The translations under genes and the position numbers were made by a program. A stretch of 64,000 bases of DNA from an uncultured virus (IMG/VR IMGVR_UViG_3300032227_002278) (taxonomy: Duplodnaviria > Heunggongvirae > Uroviricota > Caudoviricetes), in IMG/VR virus record IMGVR_UViG_3300032227_002278. One strand, 5' to 3'. Numbering within the stretch: position 1 is the stretch's first letter; each line of letters opens with the position of its first letter. Below, piece after piece: positions 9,554 through 48,822 of this stretch. Below the pieces are notes generated by a model. It did not search any database. It was not told the DNA's origin and was given only the letters and a program-made list of their open reading frames with translations.

Positions 9554-10112
9554 TAAGTTCTTTCTTAATTTTTTCTGCTTTTTTGGTTCCTTTTCTTAAC
9601 CCATATAATCGGCAACAAAAACTTGTAATTACGGCAATAAGATCTTTCATCAAATCATTCTCTTCTTCAGAATCTCTGTTTACAACTGTTAATTTGCACT
9701 TCATCTTTGGAAGCAATTCTTCAAAATAATTGAAACCAAATCTTGTTAGTCTATCTTTGTGTTCAACCAGAATATGTTGTGGATTCTTACTTAACATTTT
9801 GATTAGCTTTGGTCTTTTATCGTTCATACCACTAGCAATTTCTTTGATAACCTCTTTTACAACATAGCCATTTGCGACACAAAAGTCTGTGCATCTTTGC
9901 ACTTGTCTTTCAAGATCATCTTTTTTCTCATATGAACTGACTCTGCAATAAATGCTTACTTGCTCAACACCAGTCTTGGGTTGTGTTTCTTCTTGCACTA
10001 TTATGGTTCCATTAGGATACTGAATAGCATTCGGTATCTGTCCATTGTGAAACCAACGGAATGCAGTCATATAACTGATTCCTTGTTTTTTAGCCTATTG
10101 TGATAGCTTCAT
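9543..10112 (-). pseudogene. tnpA: IS607 serine transposase with nonsense codon at position 6
   Basis: ATG 10112 reads MKLSQ*AKKQGISYMTAFRW (TAG at 10095-10097 where Trp is typical), then YCRVSS, EIASG and EHKDRLTRFGF motifs. Confidence 0.85.
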
Positions 10113-17173: not shown

Positions 17174-18106
17174 ATGTTTGTATATCTTGCAAAATATTTT
17201 GCTATTAAAAAAACCGATGATGTTCTTTATTATAAAATAGGAAGAACAGATGATTTGTATGATAGAAATAAATCTTTAAATCCTTTGTTAGAGCCACACA
17301 GGACACAAATTATTCAAGCATGGAAAATTGGAGAAGATTCTCCTAAAGTTGAACACAACGCTAAAATACATTTTATAAATCATAGATTAAATGGAACAGA
17401 AGAATATTTTAATTTGCCTATTATATCAGAAATATATAATTATATGTCTGAATACGATGTAGTAGAAGATCTAGATGTTATTCTTAATACTGACACAAAC
17501 AATGATCTGGAATTAATTAAACTATATAATTCAATTGATGATTTTGATTCATTTATAAAATATTTAGAAAAAAAATATAACAAAGATTTGCCGTTAAAAG
17601 AAGAATCTAAAAATGTGTATTATTTGTTTTCTGGTAATAAAATTATAATAAAAAAACTTGCTGTTTTTTTTGACCCCAAATCTGGGAAATCGCCTAACAA
17701 TCAAACTCAAATAACTGATAGCAACTTACTTGGAGACATTGAGCAAATTAAAAAATATAGAAATACGGGCGATGATTCTGCAAGGATTAAAGCTATTGAA
17801 GAATTGCCAGAAGCTCTTGTCTTTGTATATAACTGTGTTGATAATAGATGGGTTGCGTTTACATCTAAAGAGCTTTTGAATCTTGTTCCATATTCTAAAT
17901 GGGACGATGAGATGTCTGGCAAAAAGAATTGTCTTAAATATACACACAAATGTCAAATAGCTATGCATCAAGACTGCATTCAACTAGGACCGATTTCTAA
18001 AATAAACAATTCTTTTAATTATAAGATTTCTTTTCCGCCTATTTTAAAAAGAGAATTTAATTTTTTAAATGAAAAAAGAATAGACTTGTCAGAACATATT
18101 ATTTAG
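17174..18106 (+). CDS. T5orf172/GIY-YIG-like domain protein
   Basis: FVYLA...YYKIGRTDDLYDR...E...H...EYF. Confidence 0.65.
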   Translation: MFVYLAKYFAIKKTDDVLYYKIGRTDDLYDRNKSLNPLLEPHRTQIIQAWKIGEDSPKVEHNAKIHFINHRLNGTEEYFNLPIISEIYNYMSEYDVVEDLDVILNTDTNNDLELIKLYNSIDDFDSFIKYLEKKYNKDLPLKEESKNVYYLFSGNKIIIKKLAVFFDPKSGKSPNNQTQITDSNLLGDIEQIKKYRNTGDDSARIKAIEELPEALVFVYNCVDNRWVAFTSKELLNLVPYSKWDDEMSGKKNCLKYTHKCQIAMHQDCIQLGPISKINNSFNYKISFPPILKREFNFLNEKRIDLSEHII

Positions 18107-18947
18107 AAAATACAGCCAGAAGCTCTTTTACCTTTTGCCTATTGCTGCCACTAGCAGCAACATACCTTCTGGCTTGTATAGAATGTATTATAGCACCTTC
18201 ATTTTTATACAAATTATCAATATATTCATTTGAATGATTGCTAATAAGAACAACAGCGCCATTTTGAACAGCTGTTTTTGCTGCTTCTATTAATCTAATA
18301 TGATCCTTTAAATCAAATTTATTAGTAGCATATTGAGTAAAGTTAGACCTTGTCTCATCAATATGATAAGGTAAATATGGAGGATCACAATAAAAGCAGT
18401 CGTTGCTTTTTGCTAGTTTTAAAATAGATTCAAAATCAGAATCATAAAATTTAAAGTTTTTAGATAGTTCCCCTACAGATTTCATTGTTTCAATCGGAGG
18501 ATTTATATTTTTATATTTACCAAATGGTACATTGAATTCTCCTTTTGAATTATACCTGCATAATCCATTGAAACAATGTCTGTTTAAATAAACAAACAAT
18601 GCACTTTTTCTCAATATATCTTGTGTTGTGTTAAACTCTTGTTTTAGTAAATTGAAAGCTGTTAAATTATTATTCGATGCTACGAAAATTTCATTAATAA
18701 TTTTTATCAAATCGGCATGTACAGTTGCATTTGACTTATATAAATTAATAAGATCTTGATTTGTGTCGTTTATAATTATTTCATCACAATTAACGTTTAA
18801 AGAAACAACCATGCTGCCAGCAAACGGTTCTATAAATCGTTTGGTGTTTTCGGGTATTTTATCAATTATAAAATCTAATAAAGAGGATTTTCCACCAGCC
18901 CATTTTAAAAAAGATTTAAATTTACATTTTTTTTGTAAGAAAGACAT
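18099..18947 (-). CDS. dam: Dam-family DNA adenine methyltransferase
   Basis: KWAGGK, EPFAGS, FNGLCRYN, DPPY. Confidence 0.92.
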   Translation of the reverse strand: MSFLQKKCKFKSFLKWAGGKSSLLDFIIDKIPENTKRFIEPFAGSMVVSLNVNCDEIIINDTNQDLINLYKSNATVHADLIKIINEIFVASNNNLTAFNLLKQEFNTTQDILRKSALFVYLNRHCFNGLCRYNSKGEFNVPFGKYKNINPPIETMKSVGELSKNFKFYDSDFESILKLAKSNDCFYCDPPYLPYHIDETRSNFTQYATNKFDLKDHIRLIEAAKTAVQNGAVVLISNHSNEYIDNLYKNEGAIIHSIQARRYVAASGSNRQKVKELLAVFSK

Positions 18948-20583: not shown

Positions 20584-21423
20584 TTACCTAGAAAAAACAG
20601 CCAAAACTTCCGAAACTTTCTTCCTTGTGGAAGACTTACAAGAGACATTCCTCTTGACTTCTAATAACTTTATATTAGCTCCATAAGATCTATAGAGTCT
20701 ATTAATAAAGAATGTATTGTGGTTGCTAATAACAACAACAGCTCCTTTTTGAGCGGCAAAATATGCAAGCTCTGCTAATTTTATTTGTTCTTTTATATCA
20801 AAACCTTTTGGAATATAATTTGAGAAATTTTTATTGCCATTAAGATTTTGAAAAGTATCATAAGGAGGGTCACAATAAATAAGATCCCCCTCTCTTGCCG
20901 TAGACATTATTTTTTCAAAAGTTTTATTACATATTTGAAAATTCTTTGATTTCATAATATAACTAGCATGTAATATCGTGTCTATCGGAGGATTTACAGT
21001 TTTGCTTCCACCAAAAGAAACATTGAATTCGCCTTTTGTGTTATAACGACAAAGACCATTGAATCCATGCCTGTTTAAATAAATAAACAAAGCAGCCTTG
21101 CGTATATTTTGTTCTTTAATATTATTAAATTCAATTCTAAAATCTCTATAAGATTCTATATTGTTGGTTTCTTTTTTAAATAGTGTGTTTACTTCTTTGA
21201 TCAATTTAACATGACTGTTTTTAACACATTTATAGAGATTGACTAAGTCTTTGTTCAAATCATTTACTACAACATTATCCATTTCACAGTTAAGTGAAAT
21301 AACCATGCTGCCAGCAAATGGTTCTAAAAACCTTTTATAATTTGCTTTTGGGCAAACTGAAAAAATATTATGGGCAAGCTCGGATTTGCCTCCTAACCAT
21401 TTTATAAAACTTTTTGTAATCAT
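20584..21423 (-). CDS. dam: Dam-family DNA adenine methyltransferase (paralog)
   Basis: KWLGGK, EPFAGS, FNGLCRYN, DPPY. Confidence 0.92.
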   Translation of the reverse strand: MITKSFIKWLGGKSELAHNIFSVCPKANYKRFLEPFAGSMVISLNCEMDNVVVNDLNKDLVNLYKCVKNSHVKLIKEVNTLFKKETNNIESYRDFRIEFNNIKEQNIRKAALFIYLNRHGFNGLCRYNTKGEFNVSFGGSKTVNPPIDTILHASYIMKSKNFQICNKTFEKIMSTAREGDLIYCDPPYDTFQNLNGNKNFSNYIPKGFDIKEQIKLAELAYFAAQKGAVVVISNHNTFFINRLYRSYGANIKLLEVKRNVSCKSSTRKKVSEVLAVFSR

Positions 21424-25465: not shown

Positions 25466-28093
25466 ATGCAATTTAGATTTAAATTACCGACACTACCACC
25501 TTATTTACAAATGGACCCAGTCAGACTTGATGGCAAGTCTGTACAAATTGATGGATATATCGAAACTGTAGATAACTTTGGATACAGAAAGATATCAACT
25601 CCTTCTGACGGAATTGTATTTTCTGATAAGCCCCAAACCTTGGCGGATGTACTTGGCTCTTCATTGCAACAAACCTCAACTTATAAACTATATGAAAATG
25701 GTATTAATGTATATACAGATGATCATGTTCAATATGCTGTAACAAACTCTGCTTCTGACAATCTTTCTATAGATTATTCCATAGAAGGCGATTTTAAAAT
25801 AATAACAATAACATTGCCAACTTCTATTATTTTAAATAACTTTGCTGAAAAAGTTAGATCTGCACCCAATCCAGCATTAGTTAATATGTACCAAGATTTA
25901 GCAACTACTGGATATAAACTAAGATATGCAACACCAGATTTTGCATCTATGGGTTCTCCTTCTGAATTAATATGCGAATTCATGTCTTTTAAAGTGTTTA
26001 GCTACAATAGAAATGAAATTATTGAAGCTTATATTTGTACTAAACAATATGCTCCAACATGGGTTTATCCAGGTCCCGACCCATCAAATCCAACTAAATT
26101 CTTAGATTTATTAGGAGCTGTTACACTTGATTTTACTTCTACCACTACCACCACAACTACTACTACTTCTACCACAACTACTACTACCACCACAACAACA
26201 ACATCTACAACCACCACTACACCTATTCCTACAACTACAACAACTACTTCTAGACCAACAACAACCTCAACTACAACGACAGCGGCTCCGGGTGCTGGTG
26301 GTAGATTGCCACAACCATCACAATCACTTTCTTACAATGGAATTACTTTGACTGGCAGTGGTTCAGGTAGTAATTATGCCTCACCATTTACCTATTGTTC
26401 AGTATCCATGCCTGCTAATTCTATGATTCTTGGAAATGCTGGAAGTGGTACTTATACGCTTACATTCTCTTTGCCTGTAAACAATATTCAAATTTTAGGA
26501 TCAGGTCAAAATTTTGGAGAAACCTTTACATTTTCAGTCAATAATGGCACATTGACTACAAGTCTAATCCCCGGAATTGGTTGCAATGCCACTTTAACTG
26601 GAAATACTGTAGGTAATTCCAGCGTTGGTTCTTTTGGAGCAACGCTAGCATCAACATCAGATTACACATCTTTGTCTATAACATTCCCCGGCGGTGGCGG
26701 CGGCACATTGTTCTCAGTTATAGAAAGCTCTGTTGTTTCTGGAGCAACCACTACTACACCTGTTCCAACAACCACTACAACCACACCTGCTCCAACAACA
26801 ACTACTACTACAACTACAACAACAACAACAACTACTACAACAACAACTACTACACCTGCTCCAACGACCACAACAAGCACAACTACTACAACTACAACCA
26901 CAACAACCACCACAACTACAACCTCAACAACTACAACCTCAACAACTACAACCTCAACAACTACAACCTCAACAACTACAACCTCAACAACGCCCGCACC
27001 AGACCAAGCATATTCATTGTTTGGATGGGGAGAAGGTAACCTAGGAAATAATCGTTCTGCTGGAGCCCAATCGCCAACTCAAACAGTTTCTGGCGGAACA
27101 AATTGGGGAACACCTCCAAAATGCTCTTATGCACAACACTATGCCATATTGAAGAAGGATGCAACACTCTGGGCATGGGGCACTAATAGTGCAGGAGAAA
27201 TTGGTAATAACACAACAACAAATAGAAGTTCTCCTATTCAAATTGCTGCCCCCGCAGGAGTTACATGGAATGCTGTAAATATGGGATATCAAACCACATT
27301 TGTTATAGACACAACCGGCGCATTGTGGGGATGGGGCAAAAACAACTTTGGTCAGTTGGGCATTAGCACTACAATAAATGTAAGCTCTCCTGTTCAGATC
27401 AGCGCCGATACAACATGGAGTTCTATTGTAGCAGGCAATTTTGCTACTTATGCAATTAAGAAAAATGGAACTTTATGGGCATTTGGATACAATGTACAAG
27501 GACAAATCGGAGATGGAACAATAGTAAACAAAAGCAGCCCAGTTCAAATTGGCTCTGACACCACATGGTCACAAATAACTGCTGGTCAAGGACACGCATT
27601 ATCAATTAAATCAGATGGAACTTTGTGGGCATGGGGAGCAGGGTCTAACGGTTCCCTTGGAAATGGTACAATAACACATAGAAGTAGCCCCATTCAAATA
27701 GGAACTGATAATACATGGTCTTTAATACAATCAACTGGATTTGGCGGAGCAGCTTTGAAAACAGATGGAAGCCTATGGTGCTGGGGCGGAAATACAAATG
27801 GCTCTCTAGGAGATGGAACAACAGTTCACAGAAGTAGCCCAATTCAAATAGGATCTGATACAAATTGGACAGATATCGCTGGAGGACAGTACTCTGTAGT
27901 TGCACTAAAATCAGATAAATCATTATGGCATTGGGGTTACGGCGGTTCAATGGGCATAGGTGTAAACTCTGCCAGAAGCTCTCCAGTTCAAACACTCAAA
28001 GCAGATACTTTATGGATTTCAATAGGCAGCAGCTTAAGAAACTTCTTCTGCATTAGAGGTGTTACAACTACCACTACACCTGCTCCAGGTTGA
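25466..28093 (+). CDS. Thr-rich, RCC1-repeat protein (putative fibre/adhesin)
   Basis: Poly-Thr linkers; about 6-7 repeats of LWxWGxNxxGxLG...SSPxQI. Confidence 0.85.
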   Translation: MQFRFKLPTLPPYLQMDPVRLDGKSVQIDGYIETVDNFGYRKISTPSDGIVFSDKPQTLADVLGSSLQQTSTYKLYENGINVYTDDHVQYAVTNSASDNLSIDYSIEGDFKIITITLPTSIILNNFAEKVRSAPNPALVNMYQDLATTGYKLRYATPDFASMGSPSELICEFMSFKVFSYNRNEIIEAYICTKQYAPTWVYPGPDPSNPTKFLDLLGAVTLDFTSTTTTTTTTTSTTTTTTTTTTTSTTTTTPIPTTTTTTSRPTTTSTTTTAAPGAGGRLPQPSQSLSYNGITLTGSGSGSNYASPFTYCSVSMPANSMILGNAGSGTYTLTFSLPVNNIQILGSGQNFGETFTFSVNNGTLTTSLIPGIGCNATLTGNTVGNSSVGSFGATLASTSDYTSLSITFPGGGGGTLFSVIESSVVSGATTTTPVPTTTTTTPAPTTTTTTTTTTTTTTTTTTTTPAPTTTTSTTTTTTTTTTTTTTTSTTTTSTTTTSTTTTSTTTTSTTPAPDQAYSLFGWGEGNLGNNRSAGAQSPTQTVSGGTNWGTPPKCSYAQHYAILKKDATLWAWGTNSAGEIGNNTTTNRSSPIQIAAPAGVTWNAVNMGYQTTFVIDTTGALWGWGKNNFGQLGISTTINVSSPVQISADTTWSSIVAGNFATYAIKKNGTLWAFGYNVQGQIGDGTIVNKSSPVQIGSDTTWSQITAGQGHALSIKSDGTLWAWGAGSNGSLGNGTITHRSSPIQIGTDNTWSLIQSTGFGGAALKTDGSLWCWGGNTNGSLGDGTTVHRSSPIQIGSDTNWTDIAGGQYSVVALKSDKSLWHWGYGGSMGIGVNSARSSPVQTLKADTLWISIGSSLRNFFCIRGVTTTTTPAPG
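26921..26990 (+). repeat. 15-bp tandem repeat ACCTCAACAACTACA within the Thr linker
   Basis: Four full copies plus a partial copy. Confidence 0.8.
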
Positions 28094-29550: not shown

Positions 29551-30396
29551 TTATTTTCTAGTTATTACTAATTCATTTTTAGTATACGCAGTTCTTCCAG
29601 ATATATTACTTTTCATTTGCAGCCTGTTATCATTTGTTATTACATCTATCTCCGCCCAATCATATAAATTTCTTATAAAATCACAATCATCATATGATAA
29701 TACAAATTTTTTATCACTATTTTTCAAACAATTCGCTAAATCAATATGTTTCTGATCGTCAAAATAATAATAATATAAAGATTTACCCTTCTCATAATAA
29801 GGAGGATCTAAATATAATAACACATTATCAAAATTGCAATTACTAATAACATCTCTAAAATCCCAATCAGTACAACCCACATTTAAAAAACTTTTACCAT
29901 TAAACAAATTTATAAAATTTCTAACCTTTTTTTCTTGATAATTAAGGTTCCAATTTGTATCTATCTTATCCTTCTTATCTTGATTGTTGCCGCCTTGAAC
30001 GCCTCCCCTTAAACCCAATCCACTATAACTACATTGATGTAACATAAGCTTCTTTATACCAATGTCAACTATATCCCAAGAATTTGTAGGCATAAATTTT
30101 AAATTTGATAATTCATCTTTAAATTTAAAAAACAATTCAACAGTAGGTTTGTAAAAACTTAGCCTTCTTATAAATTCATCAGGATATCTTATATATGATG
30201 TCCAAATACATGCTATCCCTGGATCTTTATCATTTATCCAATAATTATTAACAATACTATATTGCATACAAAATTTAACCGTCATAGTTAAACCACCAGA
30301 AAATACATCTACAAAAATAGTTTCACCTGTAACAAAATTACCCAAAATATCAAATATTTTATTAGCTATATACGATTTGCCACCAGGATAACGCAT
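29551..30396 (-). CDS. D12-class DNA adenine methyltransferase
   Basis: RYPGGKS, DVFSGG, YLDPPY, LSYDD. Confidence 0.9.
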   Translation of the reverse strand: MRYPGGKSYIANKIFDILGNFVTGETIFVDVFSGGLTMTVKFCMQYSIVNNYWINDKDPGIACIWTSYIRYPDEFIRRLSFYKPTVELFFKFKDELSNLKFMPTNSWDIVDIGIKKLMLHQCSYSGLGLRGGVQGGNNQDKKDKIDTNWNLNYQEKKVRNFINLFNGKSFLNVGCTDWDFRDVISNCNFDNVLLYLDPPYYEKGKSLYYYYFDDQKHIDLANCLKNSDKKFVLSYDDCDFIRNLYDWAEIDVITNDNRLQMKSNISGRTAYTKNELVITRK

Positions 30397-32016: not shown

Positions 32017-32176
32017 AATTAATAACCCCCCTCGCTTAATTGACCCAGAAATGCCCCAAATTTAATCCACAAGACACTTTAACACTATCTACCAGACCTA
32101 CTTGCCATTTTCCTTATATCCTCCATTAAACTCAAATTCTCCTCATTCAATAACCTAATCTCCTCTTTCAAATCAC

Positions 32177-33433
32177 GATCTTCGAGCCAAGGAAGCTCCC
32201 GGCTTCAGCCGGGGGAGGAATTGGCTCATAATAAAATTTTAGTCAAGTGATTTTTTTTTTCAATGGCAAGTGTATATAATTATACCATGAAGGCTACGCT
32301 CAAAATTAAATTGCTGACCAACCCAGAAGAATCCAAGAAACTCTTGGACACAATGGAAGTGTTTAATACAGCTTGCCAAGAAATAGCCGAAGTTTGCTAC
32401 AAAAATCAATCAGCAAACAAAGTGACAATTCAAAAAGAAGTTTATTACAATATCAAAGCAAAATACAATCTGTCTGCACAATTGGTAATTCGTTGTATTG
32501 CAAAAGCATGTGAATCATATGCCAAAAACAAAAAGATTTGTCCCAAAATTAAAAAGCACGGCTCAGTAACATATGACCAAAGAATACTAGCGTTCAAAGG
32601 ATTGGACAAAGTTAGCATTACAACAGTCTATGGAAGATTAAAAATTCCTGTTTTGATTAGAGATTATTTTAGAGGTCATGCAAGTAGAATGAAAGGTCAA
32701 TGTGACCTTCTCTATATCAATAGAGAATTCTATTTGTATGCTACTTGCGATTTACCAGAAGATAAAACTGTTGATATTAAAAATGTTATTGGTGTTGATT
32801 TGGGTGTAACCAATATTGCTGTAACATCCGAAAAAGAATTTTTTTCAAATGAAAAAGTTGAAAACAAAAGAACCAAATATGCAAAGCTAAGAAAGCATTT
32901 GCAAAAGAAACAAACCAAATCAGCCAAAAGAAAGCTGAAAAAGATTAGCGGCAAAGAGTCAAGATTCAGAAAGGATGTTAATCATCAGATAAGTAAAAAG
33001 ATCGTTTCCAAGGCAAAAAGCACAAACTCTGCAATAGCACTTGAAGAACTCAAAGGTATTAAAGAGCGGACAATTGTTAAAAAATGCCGTAAGAAACAAA
33101 GAGATAAAAGGAACGCTTGGAGTTTCCATCAGTTGAAGTTGTTTATTAGCTATAAAGCTCAACTGGCTGGCGTTCCTGTTGTCATAGTGAATCCTGCTTA
33201 TACATCGCAAATGTGCCCTAAATGCACAGCAATTGATGCTGATAACAGGAAAACCCAAAGTGAATTTTGTTGCACAGGTTGCAACTACACCGAACATGCT
33301 GATGTTGTTGGGGCAACCAATATAGCATCAGCAGGGGCTGCATCAATCAGCCTATTGTCGTCCGCTAACCAGTTGCAAAAAGCTAGTTAGAATTGGAATG
33401 ACAAGCTCCCGGCTTCAGCCGGGGGTAGTTGAC
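32177..33433 (+). mobile_element. tnpB-only IS200/IS605 (IS1341-like) element inserted 3' of TCAC
   Basis: Subterminal hairpins CCCGGCTTCAGCCGGG at both ends; right end ...GGTAGTTGAC; boundaries fixed by comparison with the 47330-47556 copy. Confidence 0.9.
32287..33390 (+). CDS. tnpB: TnpB RNA-guided nuclease, catalytic triad intact
   Basis: GVDLG, ALEEL, HADVVGA; CPKC...CTGC. Confidence 0.92.
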   Translation: MKATLKIKLLTNPEESKKLLDTMEVFNTACQEIAEVCYKNQSANKVTIQKEVYYNIKAKYNLSAQLVIRCIAKACESYAKNKKICPKIKKHGSVTYDQRILAFKGLDKVSITTVYGRLKIPVLIRDYFRGHASRMKGQCDLLYINREFYLYATCDLPEDKTVDIKNVIGVDLGVTNIAVTSEKEFFSNEKVENKRTKYAKLRKHLQKKQTKSAKRKLKKISGKESRFRKDVNHQISKKIVSKAKSTNSAIALEELKGIKERTIVKKCRKKQRDKRNAWSFHQLKLFISYKAQLAGVPVVIVNPAYTSQMCPKCTAIDADNRKTQSEFCCTGCNYTEHADVVGATNIASAGAASISLLSSANQLQKAS

Positions 33434-41801: not shown

Positions 41802-41968
41802 GGCTGTTCTTTTATGTGTCGGGTGTTGACGAGTTTTGGTTCTTTAAAGAATGGCAAGTCGGAATTACGATAATTCTGAAGGCTGTTCTTTTATGTGTCG
41901 GGTTTGGTGGTGTTGACGAGTAGTCAATGCTGCTTGTTGTTTGTTTATTTACTTTAGGAGGATATTTA

Positions 41969-43072
41969 ATGTCAAGGTCTAAGAGTTCGTCTACTGTTTT
42001 CATCGAAAAAGTTTTGATTGACAATCCCAACATTCGATACAATGATGTTGTGGCTATGGAAGAGTATAACAAAGGTGGTCATTCTTTTGACAATGCGTAT
42101 TTCAATGCTATCAAGTGTCGAATTAAGAAAGTGCAGTCTTATGTATCTACTGGTTCTGTGTCTGCTCCGTCTCATGTGATTAGTTCTGCTCCTGTAGATG
42201 GTAATGATAGTGAGTACAAGTATGATTCTGATACACAGGATTTGATTCCTGCTGTTGACCCTCACTATGTGATTAACGAGGATGCCGCAACATTCTTTGA
42301 GTTAGTCAAGAATATGTCTAACAACAAGAATGTTAATGTGCGTCTTGTTGGTCCGGCTGGTTGTGGTAAGACCAGTTTGGCTATGCAATATGCTGCTAGG
42401 CATAACTTGCCATGTTTTGTTCAGAACTGTGCGAATGTTCGTGAACCAAGAGATTGGTTTGGATATCGCAAGCTGGATGAGAATAAGAATCTGGCTTGGC
42501 ATGAGAGTTTGTTTGTCAAGATGATTGAGACTCCTAATGCTGTGATTGTGTTGGACGAAACTAATCGTTGTCCTATGCACACACTTAACACTCTATATCC
42601 TTTGCTTGACCATCGTAGGAATACATGGCTTGAAGAGGCTGGTAGAACGCTTCAGGTAGCAGAAGGTGTTACTTTCTGGGCTGCAATGAACGAGGGTAAT
42701 CAGTTTACTGGTACTACTCAACTTGATGAAGCATTCTCTGACCGAACTGGTCTGGTGATGGAATGTAAGTTCTTGTCATCAGATGATGAAGCAAAGGTCT
42801 TGCACAATCGAACTGGATTGACAAAGGACAGTTCTTTGCGTCTGGTAGAGATTGCAGAACAAGTGCGTAAGAAAGCGCAGCTTGATACTGGTGACTCTTT
42901 CAGTAAGGTGATATCTACTCGTATGCTGGAAGAAGCTGCTTCAGCTTTCGTAGTAGGTGGTCCTAAGACTATGCACTACACTCTGTTGAATCACTTCTCT
43001 GCTGCTGGTGGAGCAAGCTCTGAGAGGCAGAATCTACTCAAACTGCTCGTTGGTAAGTTTGGGACTCTGTAA
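41969..43072 (+). CDS. MoxR/CbbQ-type AAA+ ATPase
   Basis: GPAGCGKT, IVLDETNR, AAMN...Y/F.GT..LDEAFSDR, ISTRML. Confidence 0.9.
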   Translation: MSRSKSSSTVFIEKVLIDNPNIRYNDVVAMEEYNKGGHSFDNAYFNAIKCRIKKVQSYVSTGSVSAPSHVISSAPVDGNDSEYKYDSDTQDLIPAVDPHYVINEDAATFFELVKNMSNNKNVNVRLVGPAGCGKTSLAMQYAARHNLPCFVQNCANVREPRDWFGYRKLDENKNLAWHESLFVKMIETPNAVIVLDETNRCPMHTLNTLYPLLDHRRNTWLEEAGRTLQVAEGVTFWAAMNEGNQFTGTTQLDEAFSDRTGLVMECKFLSSDDEAKVLHNRTGLTKDSSLRLVEIAEQVRKKAQLDTGDSFSKVISTRMLEEAASAFVVGGPKTMHYTLLNHFSAAGGASSERQNLLKLLVGKFGTL

Positions 43073-43092
43073 TCTCTAGACTTGGATATATG

Positions 43093-43125
43093 CCCCTTGC
43101 TGGCTATAAACCAGCAAGGGGTTTT
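43093..43125 (+). terminator. Intrinsic terminator
   Basis: CCCCTTGCTGG-loop-CCAGCAAGGGG TTTT. Confidence 0.75.
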
Positions 43126-43293
43126 CTTATAAATATATATTTTGAAAAAATGTTTAGAATAAATTATGTTTTTTGAATCTTGTCCTATAATGGTAGTAGG
43201 AAGGAATAAGTTATTCCTTGGAATTACGATAATTCCGAAGCGTATTCTTTTATTTGTCAGGCGGGTTACTTAAAACTTAGAAGGAGGAATGTT

Positions 43294-45486
43294 ATGGTTA
43301 ATCAAGGTGATTTGTTTGGTGATGAGAATAATGAAGAGTTGGAGCGTCTTGCTGACGAGTTTGACAAGAATGATGATTATCTTCTAGAGAAGGAACTAGA
43401 AGAACAAGGTGGCAAGTCTTTCAATCCTGGTACTCATGGTATTCAAGAAAACCATCCTCTTCTGGATGGCTTCAACAAAGATACTGGACGATACGATACA
43501 ACTAACTATTGGGAAGGTGCTTACGGCAGCCGTCGTAAATATACCGACTCTTTACATACTGATAGCTGGAAAGTTACTCCTGTTAAGTCTACCAGCGAAT
43601 ACCTTCGTAACTCCTATTGGGGCAACAGCTGGTACTATGACAGCTATAGCAAGAAGGCTGACCAGAAAGCTCAAGTCCATGAAACTCTACATGAAGTTCT
43701 CAAGGAATTGAACAAGACCATTAACCTTACTTCAAACTCTAAAGACTCTGTTGAGTCTGTTATGAATGTGAAGTATTCTAATGGTGCTGTTATCAATGAC
43801 TTCGAGAGTAACACTCTTTACATATCGCCTAATGTGATGTTGAAAGATGATGATGAAGTTAGGTCTGGTGCAGACTATTATGAGTCTCTTGATGGTTTGA
43901 ATGGTCAAGCTATGTTGTGTTCCTTTATGAAGAAAGGAATTCATGCTGATGCTAATGCAGACTACAAGGAAGCTAAGGAATGGGCAGCAAGAAACATCTT
44001 CATGTGTGATATTCAAGCTAGTGCTGCTGCTGAGATTTTCAGTAAGTGGCCGGGCTTTATGAGTTATATCACAAGTCAGATGCAAGTATTTGGAGTTCAG
44101 AAGGATTATCTTCTGAAGAAGTTTAACCAATCTGTTATCTTGTTGGATGACTTGATTGAGACTTTGTGTTACAATCGTCTTGCTTCTGAAAAGGTTGATT
44201 ACACAATCTTCCATCCTGATATCGTGAAGAAGATGTTGTTGGCAGATAGGGACTTCAATCAGATGATTGATACTCCTTGCAAGTCAGAAGATAGGTTCAA
44301 GAAAGCTCAGCGTATCTACGAATCTATCAGGGATACGCTGAATCTTGAGAAAGCAGAACTTGAGGTTAAATGGAGTCAATCTGGATTATCACTTCCTGGT
44401 AAGTCTAGTGAAGGTGTATCTGGCGAAGGTACTCCTGTATCTGGTGATGATAATGAAGAGGTTGGTAATCCACAAGCTACCAATCAGATTGACAATAGTC
44501 CATCTGATGAGCAGCGTAGGTTTACTGGAGACAACTCCTATAACAACAAGATGGAAGTGGATGGGGATGTTGTATTCAATATCCTTGACCATAACAAGAA
44601 GTTGCGTGAAAGACTCAAGGAACTAGGAGATAAGCTGGCTTCTCCAGCTATATCTTCTGATGAGATTATCAACAAAGAAAAAGTAGTTTACAAGCTCTTG
44701 GTTCCACCTGTCAATGTGGAGACAATCAAGGCTTATGACGAATATGTCAAAATGAACAAAAAGAATATCAATGCAATTAAAGATGCAATGATGTTTCACA
44801 ACAACTATCCTTGGATTCCAAGCTATGGCTTGACTGATGGGGATATCGATGAACACGCTCTCTATAAGATGCACTTTGGAGAGTATGAGCGTTTGTTTGA
44901 AAGAAGGGACCAAGTTACTGAGAAAAGATATCATATCACTCTGGTAATTGACCAGTCTGGTTCAATGTCTGGTGACAAACTGGAACAAGCTAACAAGCTA
45001 TGTATCCTGTTCGCAGAAGCTCTCAAGTTCCTGCGTAATACAGAATACAGTATCTATGGCTTTGAAACCAGAGATATCAATACTTGGGTCTATAAGGATA
45101 AGCTCTACGATAAGCAGAAAGCTCTGATTGAGCCTACTGCTAATGGTGGAACTGCAATGGGGTATCATCTTGCTTCTATTGGAGACAAGGTGATTAACCA
45201 GTATAGTGACTTTGACAACAAGTTCATGTTTGTTATATGTGATGGTTCGCCAACTCATGGAGTAGACAATATGAATAGTTGTCAGTTTACTAATCACTCA
45301 ATCAAACTTTTGAGGAGGCAAGGTATTCAAGTTTATGGAATTGGTATCTTGAATGCTTTCCAAGAAAGGACTGGTAACGAGATCTTTGGTGAAGGCAACT
45401 TTACTGTGATTGATGATATCAAGGGTAGTTTGTCTATCCTGACTAACAGACTGAGGAAGTATCTGCAAAAGTCTTCTAAGGTCTGA
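43294..45486 (+). CDS. VWA-domain protein (CobT-like partner of the AAA ATPase)
   Basis: MIDAS LVIDQSGSM, GGT, ICDGSP, VYGIGI. Confidence 0.88.
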   Translation: MVNQGDLFGDENNEELERLADEFDKNDDYLLEKELEEQGGKSFNPGTHGIQENHPLLDGFNKDTGRYDTTNYWEGAYGSRRKYTDSLHTDSWKVTPVKSTSEYLRNSYWGNSWYYDSYSKKADQKAQVHETLHEVLKELNKTINLTSNSKDSVESVMNVKYSNGAVINDFESNTLYISPNVMLKDDDEVRSGADYYESLDGLNGQAMLCSFMKKGIHADANADYKEAKEWAARNIFMCDIQASAAAEIFSKWPGFMSYITSQMQVFGVQKDYLLKKFNQSVILLDDLIETLCYNRLASEKVDYTIFHPDIVKKMLLADRDFNQMIDTPCKSEDRFKKAQRIYESIRDTLNLEKAELEVKWSQSGLSLPGKSSEGVSGEGTPVSGDDNEEVGNPQATNQIDNSPSDEQRRFTGDNSYNNKMEVDGDVVFNILDHNKKLRERLKELGDKLASPAISSDEIINKEKVVYKLLVPPVNVETIKAYDEYVKMNKKNINAIKDAMMFHNNYPWIPSYGLTDGDIDEHALYKMHFGEYERLFERRDQVTEKRYHITLVIDQSGSMSGDKLEQANKLCILFAEALKFLRNTEYSIYGFETRDINTWVYKDKLYDKQKALIEPTANGGTAMGYHLASIGDKVINQYSDFDNKFMFVICDGSPTHGVDNMNSCQFTNHSIKLLRRQGIQVYGIGILNAFQERTGNEIFGEGNFTVIDDIKGSLSILTNRLRKYLQKSSKV

Positions 45487-45586: not shown

Positions 45587-46024
45587 ATGATGTTGACTAA
45601 GAAGTTTATGCTTGCTGGTAAGGCTATCTGGACTTTGGGCGTTCCCGAAACCTTTCAGAAGGAAAAGGATTGCAAAAGCCACTATACTTTCAAGATTGCT
45701 AAAAAGAAAGATGCTGATATCTGGTTTGTTAATCTACTGACCGGACCAGACAACATGTCTAATTATACCTACATAGGTATGGTAAATTCTGCCACCGGCG
45801 AAGTTAATCTTACCCGCAATAGCAAGATGACTAAAGATAGCATTTGCTATAGGTTATTGAACAGAGTGATGTCTAGGGTATGGGCTGAGGAAGTGGAGAA
45901 GATTGTGGAGGCTGGGTTTACTCTTCAACATGAGGGTAAGTGTGGTCGTTGTGGTCGTAGGTTGACTACTCCAGAGTCTATTGCGTCTGGATTTGGACCG
46001 GAGTGTATTCAACTAATCGGTTAA
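45587..46024 (+). CDS. DUF6011-like Zn-finger protein
   Basis: HEGKCGRCGRRLTTPESIASGFGPEC. Confidence 0.8.
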   Translation: MMLTKKFMLAGKAIWTLGVPETFQKEKDCKSHYTFKIAKKKDADIWFVNLLTGPDNMSNYTYIGMVNSATGEVNLTRNSKMTKDSICYRLLNRVMSRVWAEEVEKIVEAGFTLQHEGKCGRCGRRLTTPESIASGFGPECIQLIG

Positions 46025-46087: not shown

Positions 46088-47251
46088 ATGTTTTTCAACA
46101 AGTCTTATCGTTACAATCAGTTAAGTAAGCTCATGGAGAAGGAGCTATATGCTCCTGCTTGCTCTCTAATGCTCATGGACAGCAAGAAGTCTGTATTCGA
46201 TAACAAGGTTCGCAAGAGAGTTTATGACTTTGTTAAGTCAAATTTTTCTGACAAGATAGATTCTTCTATTCTTAATGCCTTGCAAGCTAGTATTAGAGAC
46301 ACTGTATCTGTTACCGACTTACAATTTCTTCTTAAAGGAAATGATATAGTTTATAATAATGTTATTGCGGCTTATCAAATTGATAATGTCAGCATTGAAG
46401 CTTTATCTAATCTATGGAATAATTTGAGAAAAACTAGTAATAACTTATTTTATGAAGAAGATGTATATCGCATAGCTAAGAGATTTTATGATTATGCACA
46501 TACGAGAGCATATGATACCATAGTGTATATGCATAACAGTTTTAATCCTTCTATGGAGATTAATTTTGATATGTCTTCTTTCCCAGAGCAACAACTAATT
46601 ATTGCTAGATTGATTGCTTTGTATGAAATAAACAAAAGTCAAATTAGATTTAGTCGTTATGGAGTACAACAGCAGGAAGTTAATAAAGAACCATTGCAAT
46701 GGAATTTGGAGAAATGTTCTTCTGCTATTTTTGATAACAATCCATTGAATCGTTATAGTTTTCAATATATACGAATCATTGGCGAAGAAAAGATGATGCC
46801 TGCTGTTATCGATTATCTTGATAAGATGCAGACTAATCCATTGTTTGCTGAAAAGCATTATAATGAAATTGTATTATCTTGTTTGCAACATGGATTAAAC
46901 AGGATTGCATCTTATATCATGAAGAGGCGTGATATTAAGGCTATTACAAAGTTGTGCAAGGATTTGATTATCAGTTGGAATCCTCAATATACATTGAAAG
47001 AACCTCAATCTGTTCTTTTTGCTGTTGCTGCAAAAGATTTAACTACTGCTGCAAGAGAGTCTCTCTTTGAGGCTATGCAGAATATGTCTAGAGAGATTGA
47101 TAACATGACTGAGTGGCTTAACAATCCAAACTTCAATGTAATCTTGCACAAGATTCATTGGATTGAAACTATCAATAAGATGCTAGATGAGAAACGACCT
47201 GAGAAAATCAAGATCGCTAAACCTAGAACATCTAAGAAGAAGCTTGCTTGA
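46088..47251 (+). CDS. Hypothetical protein
   Basis: 387-aa ORF with motif and RBS. Confidence 0.7.
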   Translation: MFFNKSYRYNQLSKLMEKELYAPACSLMLMDSKKSVFDNKVRKRVYDFVKSNFSDKIDSSILNALQASIRDTVSVTDLQFLLKGNDIVYNNVIAAYQIDNVSIEALSNLWNNLRKTSNNLFYEEDVYRIAKRFYDYAHTRAYDTIVYMHNSFNPSMEINFDMSSFPEQQLIIARLIALYEINKSQIRFSRYGVQQQEVNKEPLQWNLEKCSSAIFDNNPLNRYSFQYIRIIGEEKMMPAVIDYLDKMQTNPLFAEKHYNEIVLSCLQHGLNRIASYIMKRRDIKAITKLCKDLIISWNPQYTLKEPQSVLFAVAAKDLTTAARESLFEAMQNMSREIDNMTEWLNNPNFNVILHKIHWIETINKMLDEKRPEKIKIAKPRTSKKKLA

Positions 47252-47257
47252 TATACC

Positions 47258-47296
47258 AAAGCCTAGCACCATCTATCTTGATGGTGCTAGGCTTTT
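47258..47296. terminator. Bidirectional intrinsic terminator
   Basis: AAAGCCTAGCACCATC / GATGGTGCTAGGCTTTT. Confidence 0.8.
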
Positions 47297-47321
47297 ATTC
47301 AGGGGTTGTACTATTTTAAAG

Positions 47322-47620
47322 AGCCACCCGTCAACTACCCCCAGCTAAAGCAGGGAGCTTGTCATTCCAAGTTTCGTGCTGACTTTTAGTCCAGTTCCGG
47401 CTTTCAGCCGGAACACACGGAATCTGAAATCAGATTCAACGGACGACATTAGGCTGATTGATGCAGCCCTATGTTTAATTATAGTGTTGTTTTGTTTAAG
47501 TTCAAGAGCCAATTCCTCCCCCGGCTAAAGCCGGGAGCTTCCTTGGCTCGGAGATCGTGAGTACTGCCCTCACCTTGTCCAATTTACGAAATTGGTGCAT
47601 TTCTTCTCTGCCAGAGTGGC
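47322..47620 (-). tRNA. trnT: tRNA-Thr(CGU) interrupted by a mini-IS between the T-arm and the acceptor 3' strand
   Basis: GCCACTC..CCAAT-TTCGTAA-ATTGG..GTGAG-GGCAGTA-CTCAC (47620-47557) joins GGGTGGC-T (47329-47322); TATAAT upstream. Confidence 0.75.
47330..47556 (-). mobile_element. 227-bp ORF-less IS200/IS605 derivative carrying an omegaRNA
   Basis: Ends near-identical to the 32177-33433 element; same TCAC flank. Confidence 0.9.
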
Positions 47621-47714
47621 GTGATAGTTAATTATAGTTTCACTTTTAACTCACACCAAAAAATAATTACGATAATTTTTAAGTCTAATCTTTTAGGTGC
47701 GGAGGAGTGGTTAA

Positions 47715-48143
47715 ATGGAAGAGATGGAACTCATCGAGTTTGAGTTTGAATATGATAATTATACTTTCTTGTATATTCAGAAGACCTTTTTAAAGAAATG
47801 GCTGGTCGAATCCGAAGTCGATGCCATAAGTGAAGATGCACAAGAACTGTTAAAAGACAATTACTTTAACTATGATTGTTTCCAATATGGAAGGTCTTTG
47901 TTTTTAGATACAAGGAATAATCCAGTTATGGTCCCTAATGATGTTACAGATATAAATGAAGGTGACATTGTACTGTTTCAACAGTATGAATGTATTGTTT
48001 TAAAGAAGATGTTTTTTGGTAGTAAGCATCCTTATTATTTGTTAGGTGGTAAGAGCGAGTATTCTGATAGTGTAAGGGCGAAGATCGGAAAGAATCCTGT
48101 GAGCTATACGCTTCTGAGGAAAGTTTTTTCCTCGGAAAACTAA
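47715..48143 (+). CDS. Hypothetical protein
   Basis: Motif, GGAGGAG RBS. Confidence 0.65.
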   Translation: MEEMELIEFEFEYDNYTFLYIQKTFLKKWLVESEVDAISEDAQELLKDNYFNYDCFQYGRSLFLDTRNNPVMVPNDVTDINEGDIVLFQQYECIVLKKMFFGSKHPYYLLGGKSEYSDSVRAKIGKNPVSYTLLRKVFSSEN

Positions 48144-48186
48144 AAAAAATCTCCCTGTCCTATAATGAAGGCATGGGGGATTTGCA

Positions 48187-48822
48187 ATGGTTCGTGTTTT
48201 TAGTGCGTTAATTTTGCTTCTGGCGGGTTTTCTTCCAAAGTGTGAAGCTGGTTGAGGCAAGCCAGCTTTGCCCCAGTCTGGGGCGTATTACAAGCCTGTA
48301 ATCATCACACAATCGCAGCTTGAGATTCTGGACATTGATATTAAAGCCAGAAGGATAGCTGTAACAATGGAAACGGAAAAGAATGAAGAGCAGGTGGAGC
48401 TAGCTGTAAAGAGCGGCGATAGGATTCATAGGATTGCTGCTGCTTTTTATTATCAGAACAAGAGAGAACCTAGTGCTTGTTTAATGAATTTGCTTGCTGA
48501 CCAAGATCCATTGGTGGTAGAAGCTGCTAGATTAGCATTGGTGATAATTGCCAATGACAAGAGATACAGGAGACCTGGTGCATATCATCAAATGCATATC
48601 ATCGATTTTGGTCCTTGGATTTTTAGTCCTGGGAAAGAGAAAAGTGGTGGACAGGATGATATGAACGGGTTAACTGTTAGAAGGGAAGCGATTGACTTGT
48701 GGCAGTCGCATTTTGATAAGGTAGAGGCTAACAACCGTAAAGTTGAAGCTGAACAAAAGGCTAAGATGGAACGGGAGAAAGCTAAGGAGAATGACCCTAG
48801 AAAGGTATTAGGTGTGCAATGA
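48187..48822 (+). CDS. Secreted HEAT-like protein with in-frame UGA at codon 23 (candidate selenoprotein)
   Basis: Promoter TGTCCTATAAT, GGGGGA RBS, signal peptide MVRVFSALILLLAGFLPKCEAG, TGA 48253-48255, hairpin 48270-48284, frame continues into the 48268 ORF. Confidence 0.65.

What the first reader, a model, noticed from the sequence alone, without database searches (positions are those of the whole stretch)
47322..47640. ORF-less mini-IS in tRNA-Thr that looks like a stand-alone TnpB guide-RNA gene targeting the intact tRNA
Seen: on the minus strand, 47330-47556 has the same left end (GATCTCCGAGCCAAGGAAGCTCCCGGC..) and right end (..GGGTAGTTGAC) as the tnpB element at 32177-33433, and both follow TCAC. 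No tnpB ORF is present. Instead a TTGAAC-N16-TATAAT promoter sits just before the omegaRNA scaffold start (GGGCTGCATCAATCAGCC). Removing the 227 bp exactly rebuilds a tRNA-Thr(CGU) cloverleaf (CTCAC|GGGTGGC-T). Established: TnpB uses the right-end RNA plus the flank as guide, and the target motif as TAM. Inference: TAM = TCAC and guide = GGGTGGCTCTTTAAAA, so TnpB supplied in trans would cut intact tRNA-Thr alleles (excised copies or co-infecting phages). This would be a two-guide, one-nuclease homing or competition system. The orphan scaffold also has extra hairpins compared with the full copy.
Basis: partly seen in the sequence, partly recalled or inferred. Interest (0 to 1): 0.85.

Follow-up and report, generated by a model that had tools for sequence, protein, structure and literature searches.

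The report
Gene-less mini-transposon carrying a TnpB guide RNA
A 227-base gene-less offshoot of a TnpB transposon sits inside a tRNA-like gene of a lake phage and still carries the guide-RNA part, so a TnpB made elsewhere in the phage could cut copies of the gene that lack the insert; such elements have already been described in bacteria.

Summary
Window 47330-47556 (minus strand) is a 227-bp ORF-less derivative of the IS200/IS605-type tnpB element at 32177-33433. It shares the left end (49/51), the start of the omegaRNA scaffold (29/30) and the right end (38/41). Both elements follow TCAC.

It carries a TTGAAC-N16-TATAAT match directly before the scaffold, and a 69-nt three-hairpin block where the full copy has 28 nt.

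A contig from another study lacks exactly these 227 bp, so the insertion is precise and polymorphic. A distant relative phage (G001) has an ordinary tRNA-Thr(UGU) at the same position. It also has a second copy of the mini-element at a different site, identical from behind the left-end hairpin to the right end.

The rebuilt target folds as a cloverleaf with anticodon CGT. ARAGORN and the Rfam scans of the interrupted window do not call it a tRNA, and its D and T loops are non-canonical.

The proposed mechanism is the published TnpB homing model applied to a PATE. Meers et al. (2023) already state that PATEs often encode omegaRNAs used in trans. Transcription, TnpB loading and cleavage remain untested, and no Y1 TnpA was found. 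Verdict: a new member of a known kind, moderately interesting.

The parts
47330..47556 (-). Whole 227-bp ORF-less mini-element (PATE-like derivative of the IS200/IS605-type tnpB element)
   Evidence: Homology to the full element at both ends and at the scaffold start. Homology to the second copy in G001 stops exactly at these two boundaries. A run X5 contig skips exactly 227 nt here.
47557..47560 (-). TCAC next to the left end: insertion target site and predicted TAM
   Evidence: Sequence. TCAC at 5 of 7 readable insertion sites of the family, TCAA and TTAC at the other two.
47506..47556 (-). Left end with subterminal hairpin (mini positions 1-51)
   Evidence: 49/51 identical to the full element's left end. 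The G001 copy differs here, including a paired change in the hairpin stem.
47478..47505 (-). Sigma-70-like promoter match TTGAAC-16-TATAAT directed towards the scaffold
   Evidence: Consensus scan, 10 of 12. Identical in the G001 copy. Absent from the full element at this position. Function not shown.
47330..47469 (-). Predicted omegaRNA scaffold (mini positions 88-227): hairpin 1, closing stem, 69-nt expansion, right-end hairpin
   Evidence: Homology to full 1159-1188 and 1217-1257. Fold z-score -4.3. Compensatory changes in 3 of 6 pairs of hairpin 1 across the family.
47371..47439 (-). 69-nt three-hairpin expansion that replaces a 28-nt hairpin of the full copy
   Evidence: An X2 contig carries the 28-nt form between the same flanks.
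47314..47329 (-). Predicted 16-nt guide: flank of the right end, made of the 3' acceptor strand, discriminator and trailer of the cloverleaf gene
   Evidence: Position only, by the TnpB model. Unique in the window at up to 3 mismatches.
47557..47620 (-). 5' 64 nt of the interrupted cloverleaf (tRNA-Thr(CGU)-like) gene. The 3' 8 nt lie at 47322-47329.
   Evidence: MFE cloverleaf after in-silico deletion. Syntenic tRNA-Thr(TGT) in G001 with the same upstream and downstream flanks. Not called by ARAGORN or Rfam.
47631..47636 (-). TATAAT 10 nt upstream of the cloverleaf gene's first base, conserved in G001; probable -10 of that gene's own promoter
   Evidence: By eye. Not reported by the consensus scan, whose -35 rule is not met.
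47261..47292 (.). 13-bp hairpin between the convergent ORF 46088-47251 and the cloverleaf gene; probable two-way terminator
   Evidence: By eye. Not reported by the scan.
32177..33433 (+). Full-length tnpB element (left end, tnpB 32263-33390, right end), preceded by TCAC at 32173-32176
   Evidence: Pfam OrfB_IS605 (1e-12) and Cas12f1-like_TNB (8.3e-21). PHROG transposase. Relatives at 78-94% nucleotide identity elsewhere.

Best explanation
This is a palindrome-associated transposable element (PATE): a 227-bp non-autonomous, gene-less derivative of the IS200/IS605-type, TnpB-only element family. One full copy of that family lies at 32177-33433.

It inserted precisely, without a target duplication, 3' of TCAC. 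The site is the junction between the T stem and the 3' acceptor strand of a non-canonical tRNA-Thr(CGU)-like gene in a large freshwater phage.

Besides the two ends needed for transposition, it keeps the whole conserved core of the TnpB omegaRNA scaffold. A promoter-like site is placed so that transcription would start at the first scaffold hairpin.

Proposed mechanism (inferred):
1. The element is transcribed from its own promoter, or from the cloverleaf gene's promoter, through the right end into the flank.
2. This gives an omegaRNA whose 16-nt guide is the 3' acceptor strand plus trailer.
3. TnpB from the full copy binds it in trans.
4. The complex cuts TCAC-flanked empty alleles, whether excised copies or co-infecting phages that lack the insert.
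5. Repair from an occupied genome restores or spreads the element.

Shown: the anatomy, the precise and polymorphic insertion, mobility to a second site, and conservation of the scaffold modules. Inferred: transcription, TnpB loading, cleavage and homing.
For: Identity
- Ends and scaffold start are shared with the full copy.
- The end-hairpin motif occurs 4 times in the window against 0 expected.
- TnpB domains are present in the full copy.
- Its alignment to solved Cas12f/TnpB chains covers GVDLG, ALEEL, HADVV and two CxxC motifs. That these are the RuvC and zinc-finger positions is recalled.

Precise, polymorphic insertion
- An X5 contig (383 nt, 3 mismatches) joins 47328 to 47556, skipping 227 nt.
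- An X2 contig reads from the T stem straight into the acceptor strand in a more divergent relative.

Mobility
- G001 holds a second copy in an unrelated intergenic site.
- It is identical from behind the left-end hairpin to the right end, and homology stops exactly at both ends.
- The two phages share only 69-88% nucleotide identity in the stretches that align.

Target motif
- TCAC at 5 of 7 readable sites, TCAA and TTAC at the other two.
- AmaTnpB has an experimentally determined TCAC TAM (PMC10278001 passages).

Scaffold
- Hairpin 1 has compensatory changes at 3 of 6 pairs. Its loop is invariant and complementary to the right-end terminus. 96.9% of cells are paired, against 20-50% when partners are slid.
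- The mini's expansion sits at the tip of the conserved closing stem.
- In ISDra2 a 116-nt scaffold suffices and the apical stem 3b is dispensable (PMC10097598 passages).
- A second, independent mini derivative (L019) also keeps the region from just before hairpin 1 to the right end.

Concept
- Meers et al. write that PATEs often encode omegaRNAs that would need TnpB in trans (PMC10055086 passage).
Against: - No evidence of transcription. The promoter match is consensus only, in AT-rich DNA where such matches are common (3 found against 1.1 +/- 1.1 expected).
- No Y1 TnpA among the 80 window ORFs of 95 aa or more that were scanned out of 94 listed (the other 14 lie mostly within or antisense to longer ORFs), nor in the 155-kb G001 record. 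Excision in this phage is therefore unproven. Both records are fragments.
- The mini's right-end hairpin has a T-T mismatch where the full copy has G-C.
- The part of its scaffold just before the right end resembles a distant high-GC element (L028) more than the window's full copy. The 32263 TnpB may not be its cognate partner.
- The predicted MFE of the mini RNA pairs the first guide bases with the scaffold. This could block the guide.
- Only two insertion sites of this mini lineage are known, and the second follows TCAA, not TCAC.
- The covariation rests on 10 distinct, related sequences.
Confidence: 0.6

Rival explanations
1. Inert relic. The mini is a deletion derivative that keeps the scaffold only because the deletion happened to end there. 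It makes no functional RNA and simply disrupts a dispensable tRNA-like gene. The promoter match is chance or a leftover of the parent's tnpB promoter.
For: - Promoter-like matches are frequent in this AT-rich region.
- No RNA holder was available to test expression.
- T-T mismatch in the right-end hairpin.
- Only two insertion sites known.
- Empty alleles persist in nature, so there is no sign of fixation.
Against: - Transposition needs only the two end hairpins. Yet both independent mini lineages that are close enough to the full copy to compare (window/G001 type and L019) keep the roughly 100-nt scaffold core from hairpin 1 onwards.
- The 188 nt behind the left-end hairpin are identical between two phages that are only 69-88% alike where they align.
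- Every conserved scaffold module is intact in the mini.
Confidence: 0.3
2. Domesticated guide. The RNA directs TnpB (or the IS607-type TnpB at 8492-9553) to bind or cut something other than the empty site. Examples would be a host tRNA gene, or a regulatory role like the nuclease-dead TldR proteins.
For: The guide begins with a tRNA acceptor strand, which could match other tRNA genes. TnpB relatives have been turned into RNA-guided repressors (preprint 10.1101/2023.11.30.569447, passages).
Against: - The guide is simply the flank of a mobile element, and it differs at the second insertion site. This is as expected for a transposon and not for a fixed regulator.
- The partner TnpB keeps the nuclease motifs.
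- There is no other match to the guide in the window at up to 3 mismatches.
- The host genome is unknown.
Confidence: 0.05
3. The functional RNA is on the other strand: an IscB-type (HEARO) omegaRNA that starts at the right end and reads into the element, with the guide taken from the plus-strand flank.
For: Weak antisense hits to Rfam HEARO (RF02033) on both right ends: 26.4 bits, E 0.0016 at 47330-47458 (+), and 23.6 bits, E 0.019 at 33278-33433 (-).
Against: - Both scores lie far below the family's gathering score of 83.
- No IscB or HNH protein among the 80 ORFs scanned.
- In the full copy this end lies 3' of tnpB on the tnpB strand, the TnpB arrangement.
- The internal promoter points the other way.
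Confidence: 0.02

Closest known systems
PATEs (palindrome-associated transposable elements) of IS200/IS605, as described for Geobacillus stearothermophilus by Meers et al. 2023 (PMC10055086)
   Same: - Gene-less.
- Keeps the left and right ends of a tnpB element family.
- Carries the omegaRNA region.
- Would depend on TnpA and TnpB supplied in trans.
   Different: - Sits in a phage rather than a bacterial chromosome.
- Has a good two-hexamer promoter match placed at the scaffold start.
- Has a 69-nt expansion of the scaffold.
- Interrupts a tRNA-like gene.
- Occupied and empty alleles are both seen in natural samples.

I did not see that paper's Extended Data or supplements, which may show similar features.
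TnpB omegaRNA (right-end RNA) of ISDra2 and AmaTnpB
   Same: - The scaffold ends at the transposon right end on the tnpB strand.
- The guide is the flank.
- The TAM is the insertion target; TCAC is the shown TAM of AmaTnpB.
- A possible pseudoknot links the 3' terminus to an upstream loop, as in ISDra2.
   Different: - It is not cut out of a tnpB mRNA, because there is no ORF. It would need its own promoter or read-through.
- Binding and cleavage are untested.
- No sense-strand Rfam match.
Homing endonucleases of phages that act on tRNA regions or on competitors (T4 SegB; the PhiPA3 intron endonuclease), as cited in PMC13565253 and seen in the listing of PMC11620839
   Same: The proposed outcome is the same: a nuclease from the occupied genome cuts the unoccupied allele of a co-infecting relative, which gives preferred inheritance or exclusion.
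   Different: Recognition here would be RNA-guided and set by the insertion site. The nuclease gene and the guide lie 14 kb apart. None of this has been shown.
IStrons (group I intron fused to an IS605 or IS607 tnpB element)
   Same: A TnpB-family element inserted in a gene in the sense orientation, where restoring the gene product would matter.
   Different: No group I intron: no intron family is matched on the mini, and only one sub-threshold chance-level intron match lies on the full copy's left end (18.8 bits against a gathering score of 43, E 2.7). The left end is only 51 nt. RNA-level repair of the cloverleaf RNA is therefore not expected.

Membership tests
IS200/IS605-family non-autonomous element (PATE) | Subterminal imperfect hairpins at both ends, on the same strand, and no terminal inverted repeats | tested here: met
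   Left-end and right-end hairpins share a 23-nt motif in direct orientation. The right-end hairpin of the mini has one T-T mismatch.
IS200/IS605-family non-autonomous element (PATE) | Precise insertion without target-site duplication, 3' of a short conserved motif next to the left end | tested here: met
   The empty allele differs by exactly 227 nt. TCAC at 5 of 7 sites, TCAA and TTAC at the other two.
IS200/IS605-family non-autonomous element (PATE) | No protein-coding gene between the ends | tested here: met
   227 nt. Only 50-55-aa chance ORFs. No similarity to tnpB coding sequence beyond the 30-nt scaffold start.
IS200/IS605-family non-autonomous element (PATE) | More than one copy at unrelated sites (mobility) | tested here: met
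   Second copy in G001 with unrelated flanks. L033 is the same site in another record.
IS200/IS605-family non-autonomous element (PATE) | A cognate Y1 (HUH) TnpA available in trans | tested here: inconclusive
   No PF01797 match among the 80 window ORFs scanned or in G001. The one match in bin G002 is not next to this family's hairpins. The window and G001 are fragments and the host is unknown.
TnpB omegaRNA | Scaffold directly upstream of, and including, the right end on the tnpB strand, with conserved structure | tested here: met
   Homology to the full copy. 96.9% of cells paired, and 3 pairs with compensatory change in hairpin 1. The small, related sample limits the weight of this.
TnpB omegaRNA | Pseudoknot between the 3' end of the scaffold and an upstream segment | tested here: inconclusive
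   The loop of hairpin 1 is complementary to the last bases of the right end over 5 pairs, but all 5 pairs never vary. There is no evidence either way.
TnpB omegaRNA | Transcribed, bound by TnpB, and guides cleavage next to the TAM | not testable with these tools
   No RNA run was listed. Biochemistry is needed.
tRNA (the interrupted gene) | Cloverleaf with a 7-nt anticodon loop | tested here: met
   MFE structure of the rebuilt 73 nt has four arms; loop TTCGTAA.
tRNA (the interrupted gene) | Recognised by tRNA models; conserved D-loop GG and T-loop TTC | tested here: not met
   ARAGORN reports 0 genes at default, in 45 shifted controls and at thresholds down to 70%. No Rfam tRNA match on the interrupted locus or on the 5' 64 nt. 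T loop GGCAGTA; no GG in the D loop. The empty allele carries the same T arm, so this is the native form.
tRNA (the interrupted gene) | Orthology to a bona fide tRNA | tested here: met
   G001 has an ARAGORN-called tRNA-Thr(TGT) between the same neighbouring genes, with near-identical upstream TATAAT-to-acceptor and downstream flanks.
HEARO / IscB omegaRNA (RF02033) | Score at or above the Rfam gathering score, and an adjacent iscB | tested here: not met
   26.4 and 23.6 bits against 83, antisense. No IscB found.

The most novel reading that the evidence does not exclude
The mini-element is a self-promoted, free-standing guide-RNA gene that re-aims the phage's TnpB at a second locus. Phage genomes carrying it cut, and convert or exclude, co-infecting relatives that carry the intact tRNA-like allele. 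This would be RNA-guided homing or marker exclusion between viruses that needs no transposase. With one nuclease and several dispersed guides, it would also be a natural intermediate between a transposon omegaRNA and a CRISPR-like arrangement.
Probability: 0.25. Interest if true: 0.75.

Novelty: new member of a known kind. Interest (0 to 1): 0.5.

Why it matters
TnpB homing has been shown in engineered bacterial systems. Whether it works in trans from gene-less elements, and whether it operates between phage genomes, has been proposed but not shown.

This locus offers a compact natural test case with every component in hand:
- a nuclease gene;
- two different guide-bearing elements in one phage;
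- a defined TCAC-flanked target;
- natural occupied and empty alleles.

It also marks where the functional omegaRNA probably begins in this family: at hairpin 1, the point to which two independent mini derivatives were trimmed. And it shows that the apical stem tolerates a 69-nt expansion.

If the RNA is not made or not used, the locus is just one more PATE insertion.

Tried and rejected
- No whole genome is held for the window.
- The 3-kb region has no match in GenBank phages.
- The neighbouring 387-aa protein has no relative in IMG/VR by the pattern search.
- The anticodon-arm pattern and the empty-junction pattern have no exact match in IMG/VR.
- Two mini-specific patterns find only the G001 record in IMG/VR. 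No full-length parent with the 69-nt expansion was found.
- The 18-mer scan of metagenome and genome contigs returned 18 loci. Eight of them (L020, L023, L025, L029, L030, L032, L034, L035) are chance matches in unrelated sequence and were dropped.
- Sliding-window conservation along tnpB did not mark a 5' edge of the omegaRNA.
- No RNA holder was listed among the sequencing runs, so expression could not be addressed.
- No sense-strand Rfam family matches the scaffold, and no intron family matches the mini.
- The earlier-findings index had nothing for this genome.
- MAFFT misaligned the mini's interior against the full element, so BLAST was used instead.
- The consensus scan reported neither the cloverleaf gene's own promoter nor the 47261-47292 hairpin. 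Both are by-eye readings.
- Literature searches for TnpB with PATEs, phage or tRNA found only the Meers preprint as directly relevant. I found no paper in that library describing a phage-borne PATE with an omegaRNA. Subscription journals and supplements were not seen.

Full report
WHAT IS THERE

Read on the minus strand, window 47620-47322 holds a short gene-like unit split by 227 bp. The 227 bp (47556 down to 47330) were compared by BLAST with the tnpB element at 32177-33433 (plus strand). The matches are:
- the first 51 nt (49/51);
- a 30-nt block, mini 88-117 = full 1159-1188 (29/30);
- the last 41 nt (38/41).

MAFFT alone misplaced the interior. The 23-nt hairpin motif common to both ends occurs four times in the window, twice per element, against none in 100 shuffles. 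Both elements are preceded by TCAC.

The ORF 32263-33390 is a TnpB:
- Pfam OrfB_IS605 at 1e-12 and Cas12f1-like_TNB at 8.3e-21;
- PHROG transposase at 2.6e-48;
- best solved relatives are Cas12f/TnpB chains. The alignment covers GVDLG, ALEEL, HADVV and two CxxC motifs. That these are the RuvC and zinc-finger positions is recalled, not tested.

The mini has no such ORF.

Between the left end and the 30-nt block, the mini has 36 nt that are absent from the full copy. They contain TTGAAC-16-TATAAT (10 of 12). The -10 ends 8 nt before the block. The full copy has no two-hexamer match on its sense strand upstream of tnpB.

Between the block and the right end, the mini has 69 nt (three predicted hairpins) where the full copy has 28 nt (one hairpin).

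IS IT A REAL, PRECISE INSERTION?

Yes. Contigs of four public runs were laid on 46700-48200.

- Run X5, from a different study than the probable source run, has a 383-nt contig lying on 46996-47328 (3 other letters) and 47556-47605 (none). It skips exactly 227 nt, with 3 letters of positional ambiguity.
- A run X2 contig lies on 47556-47620 (5 other letters). Its loose end continues directly with the 3' acceptor strand, followed by a different trailer. This is an empty site in a more divergent relative.
- Other X2 and X3 contigs replace 47321-47658 or 47321-47624 with 280 or 182 other letters. This intergenic cassette therefore varies among strains.

A SECOND COPY, AND THE SYNTENIC GENE

The end-hairpin motif found 11 loci in IMG/VR. 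One of them (L004, in the 154,941-nt record G001) carries the mini at 97% identity.

Aligned with flanks, the two copies are identical from behind the left-end hairpin to the last base of the right end. Similarity stops exactly at TCA(C/A)| on one side and at the right-end terminus on the other. The differences all lie in the left end and include a paired change in the hairpin stem.

In G001 the copy lies between ORFs, and its flanks have no counterpart in the window.

G001 is a distant relative of the window's phage: 69-88% nucleotide identity in the stretches that align. It also has a full tnpB element, cut by the contig start (L010; 77% amino-acid identity).

ARAGORN calls an 83-nt tRNA-Thr(TGT) on the minus strand of G001. 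It lies between the homologues of window ORFs 45587-46024 and 47715-48143. Its upstream TATAAT-to-acceptor region and its downstream flank are nearly identical to the window's. The window's split unit is therefore the positional counterpart of a real tRNA gene.

IS THE TARGET A tRNA?

Only in shape.

- After in-silico deletion, the 73 nt fold by MFE into a four-arm cloverleaf (-24.5 kcal/mol) with anticodon CGT.
- ARAGORN reports nothing at default settings, in 45 shifted-deletion controls, or at thresholds down to 70%.
- Rfam E-value scans find no tRNA match on the interrupted locus or on its 5' 64 nt scanned alone. The rebuilt sequence itself could not be given to Rfam.
- The T loop is GGCAGTA and the D loop lacks GG.
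- The X5 empty allele carries the same arms without a mismatch. The oddity is therefore native, not decay after insertion.
- The non-canonical T stem is what supplies the TCAC. G001's canonical T arm has none at that place.

THE FAMILY AND ITS TARGET MOTIF

An 18-mer of the scaffold found 14 metagenome loci and 4 genome loci. They break down as follows:
- 6 are full or partial tnpB elements at 78-93% nucleotide identity: L021, L024, L026, L027, L031, L036.
- 1 is the G001-type mini in another record: L033.
- 3 are other ORF-less elements: L019, L022, L028.
- 8 are chance matches in unrelated sequence and were dropped.

Two further ORF-less elements of about 330 nt lie in viral contigs (L007, L009).

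I could read the left-end junction at 7 sites:
- TCAC at 5: window full, window mini, L024, L031, L028.
- TCAA at 1: the G001 mini.
- TTAC at 1: L019.

All right-end flanks differ, as expected if the flank is the guide. TCAC is the experimentally determined TAM of AmaTnpB (PMC10278001, passages).

THE SCAFFOLD

I aligned 11 right-end regions, 10 of them distinct, and counted a hand-set structure on them.

- 96.9% of cells pair, against 20-50% when partners are slid.
- Hairpin 1 has compensatory changes at 3 of 6 pairs.
- Its 7-nt loop never varies, and it is complementary over 5 pairs to the last bases of the right end. This could be a pseudoknot like that of ISDra2 (PMC10097598, passages). 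Because these pairs never vary, the count neither supports nor opposes it.
- The mini keeps hairpin 1, the closing stem and the right-end hairpin. The right-end hairpin has one T-T mismatch.
- Its 69-nt expansion sits at the tip of the closing stem. In ISDra2 the corresponding apical stem 3b is disordered and dispensable, and a 116-nt scaffold suffices.
- L019, an independent derivative of about 160 nt without the promoter, also keeps everything from about 20 nt before hairpin 1.

Transposition should need only the end hairpins. The repeated retention of the scaffold core therefore argues that it is useful to the element. The sample is small and its members are related, so this is suggestive rather than proof.

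MECHANISM

After excision, TAM plus right-end flank form the donor joint that TnpB-omegaRNA cuts. In the occupied allele the element separates TAM from target, so the occupied allele is spared.

Meers et al. state that PATEs 'often encode' omegaRNAs that would need TnpB in trans. [quoted passage not shown]

The second statement explains a side observation. Both right ends give weak antisense hits to Rfam HEARO: 26.4 and 23.6 bits against a gathering score of 83. I read these as a shared right-end hairpin, not as an IscB guide.

TnpB normally cuts its omegaRNA out of its own mRNA at the 5' side (PMC10278001, abstract and passages). A gene-less element therefore needs a promoter of its own or read-through. 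Here both are available:
- the internal match;
- the cloverleaf gene's own TATAAT, in the same orientation (by eye).

An inference: read-through transcripts would contain the 5' acceptor strand, which can pair with the first 7 guide bases. A transcript from the internal promoter would not.

WHAT IS MISSING

- No RNA data.
- No Y1 TnpA among the 80 window ORFs of 95 aa or more that were scanned, out of 94 listed. The other 14 lie mostly within or antisense to longer ORFs.
- No Y1 TnpA in G001 either. The one match in bin G002 is unrelated to these hairpins.
- No full-length parent with the 69-nt expansion.
- The part of the mini's scaffold just before the right end resembles a distant high-GC ORF-less element (L028) more than the window's full copy.
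- The MFE of the mini RNA pairs guide bases with the scaffold.

VERDICT

The points specific to this locus are:
- the phage setting;
- the promoter placed at the scaffold start;
- the expanded scaffold;
- the tRNA-like target;
- the natural polymorphism.

Novelty: new member of a known kind. Interest: 0.5.

Noticed in passing
window 8492-10070 (-): A second, unrelated TnpB gene (353 aa, Cas12f1-like_TNB 1.6e-14) overlaps the end of a serine-resolvase gene (9543-10070, Resolvase N-terminal domain 4.2e-17). This is an IS607-type element in the same phage. It does not carry the end hairpin of the family studied here.
   Followed up: partly
window 47330-47458 (+) and 33278-33433 (-): The antisense strand of both right ends gives weak, sub-threshold hits to Rfam HEARO, the IscB omegaRNA (26.4 and 23.6 bits; gathering score 83). 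The first ~33 nt match the consensus closely. This suggests that TnpB-type and IscB-type elements share a right-end hairpin.
   Followed up: partly
L019 137-297 (-): An independent mini derivative of about 160 nt from the same family, after TTAC. It has a left-end hairpin followed by a right-end-like terminus, then the last ~20 nt of tnpB, the scaffold and the right end. It has no promoter match.
   Followed up: partly
L007, L009, L022, L028: ORF-less elements of about 330 nt with the same right-end hairpin, a left-end-like hairpin about 300 nt upstream and no TnpB similarity. Two are in viral contigs. L028 follows TCAC. Gene-less relatives with long scaffold-like interiors appear to be common.
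   Followed up: partly
L016 579-661 (-) in G001: The syntenic tRNA-Thr(TGT) is 83 nt long with a variable arm of about 14 nt. That is unusual for a threonine tRNA.
   Followed up: no
window 47321-47658: In runs X2 and X3 (same study as the probable source), other strains replace this intergenic stretch with 280 or 182 different letters. One X2 contig shows the 3' end of another tRNA directly upstream of the cloverleaf gene. The tRNA cassette varies among strains.
   Followed up: no
L001, L010, L011, L026, L027, L036: Six contigs begin inside the tnpB element, as expected if it is multi-copy and breaks assemblies.
   Followed up: no
window 32255-32265: In the full copy a TATAAT ends 6 nt before the tnpB ATG, leaving no room for a ribosome-binding site. 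The tnpB mRNA may therefore be leaderless (by eye). The consensus scan found no -35.
   Followed up: no
window 18099-18947, 20584-21423, 29551-30396 (-); 25466-28093 (+); 41927-45486 (+): Three D12-class adenine methyltransferase genes, an 875-aa RCC1-repeat protein, and a CobS-like AAA ATPase next to a CobT-like VWA protein. This gene content is typical of large aquatic phages.
   Followed up: no
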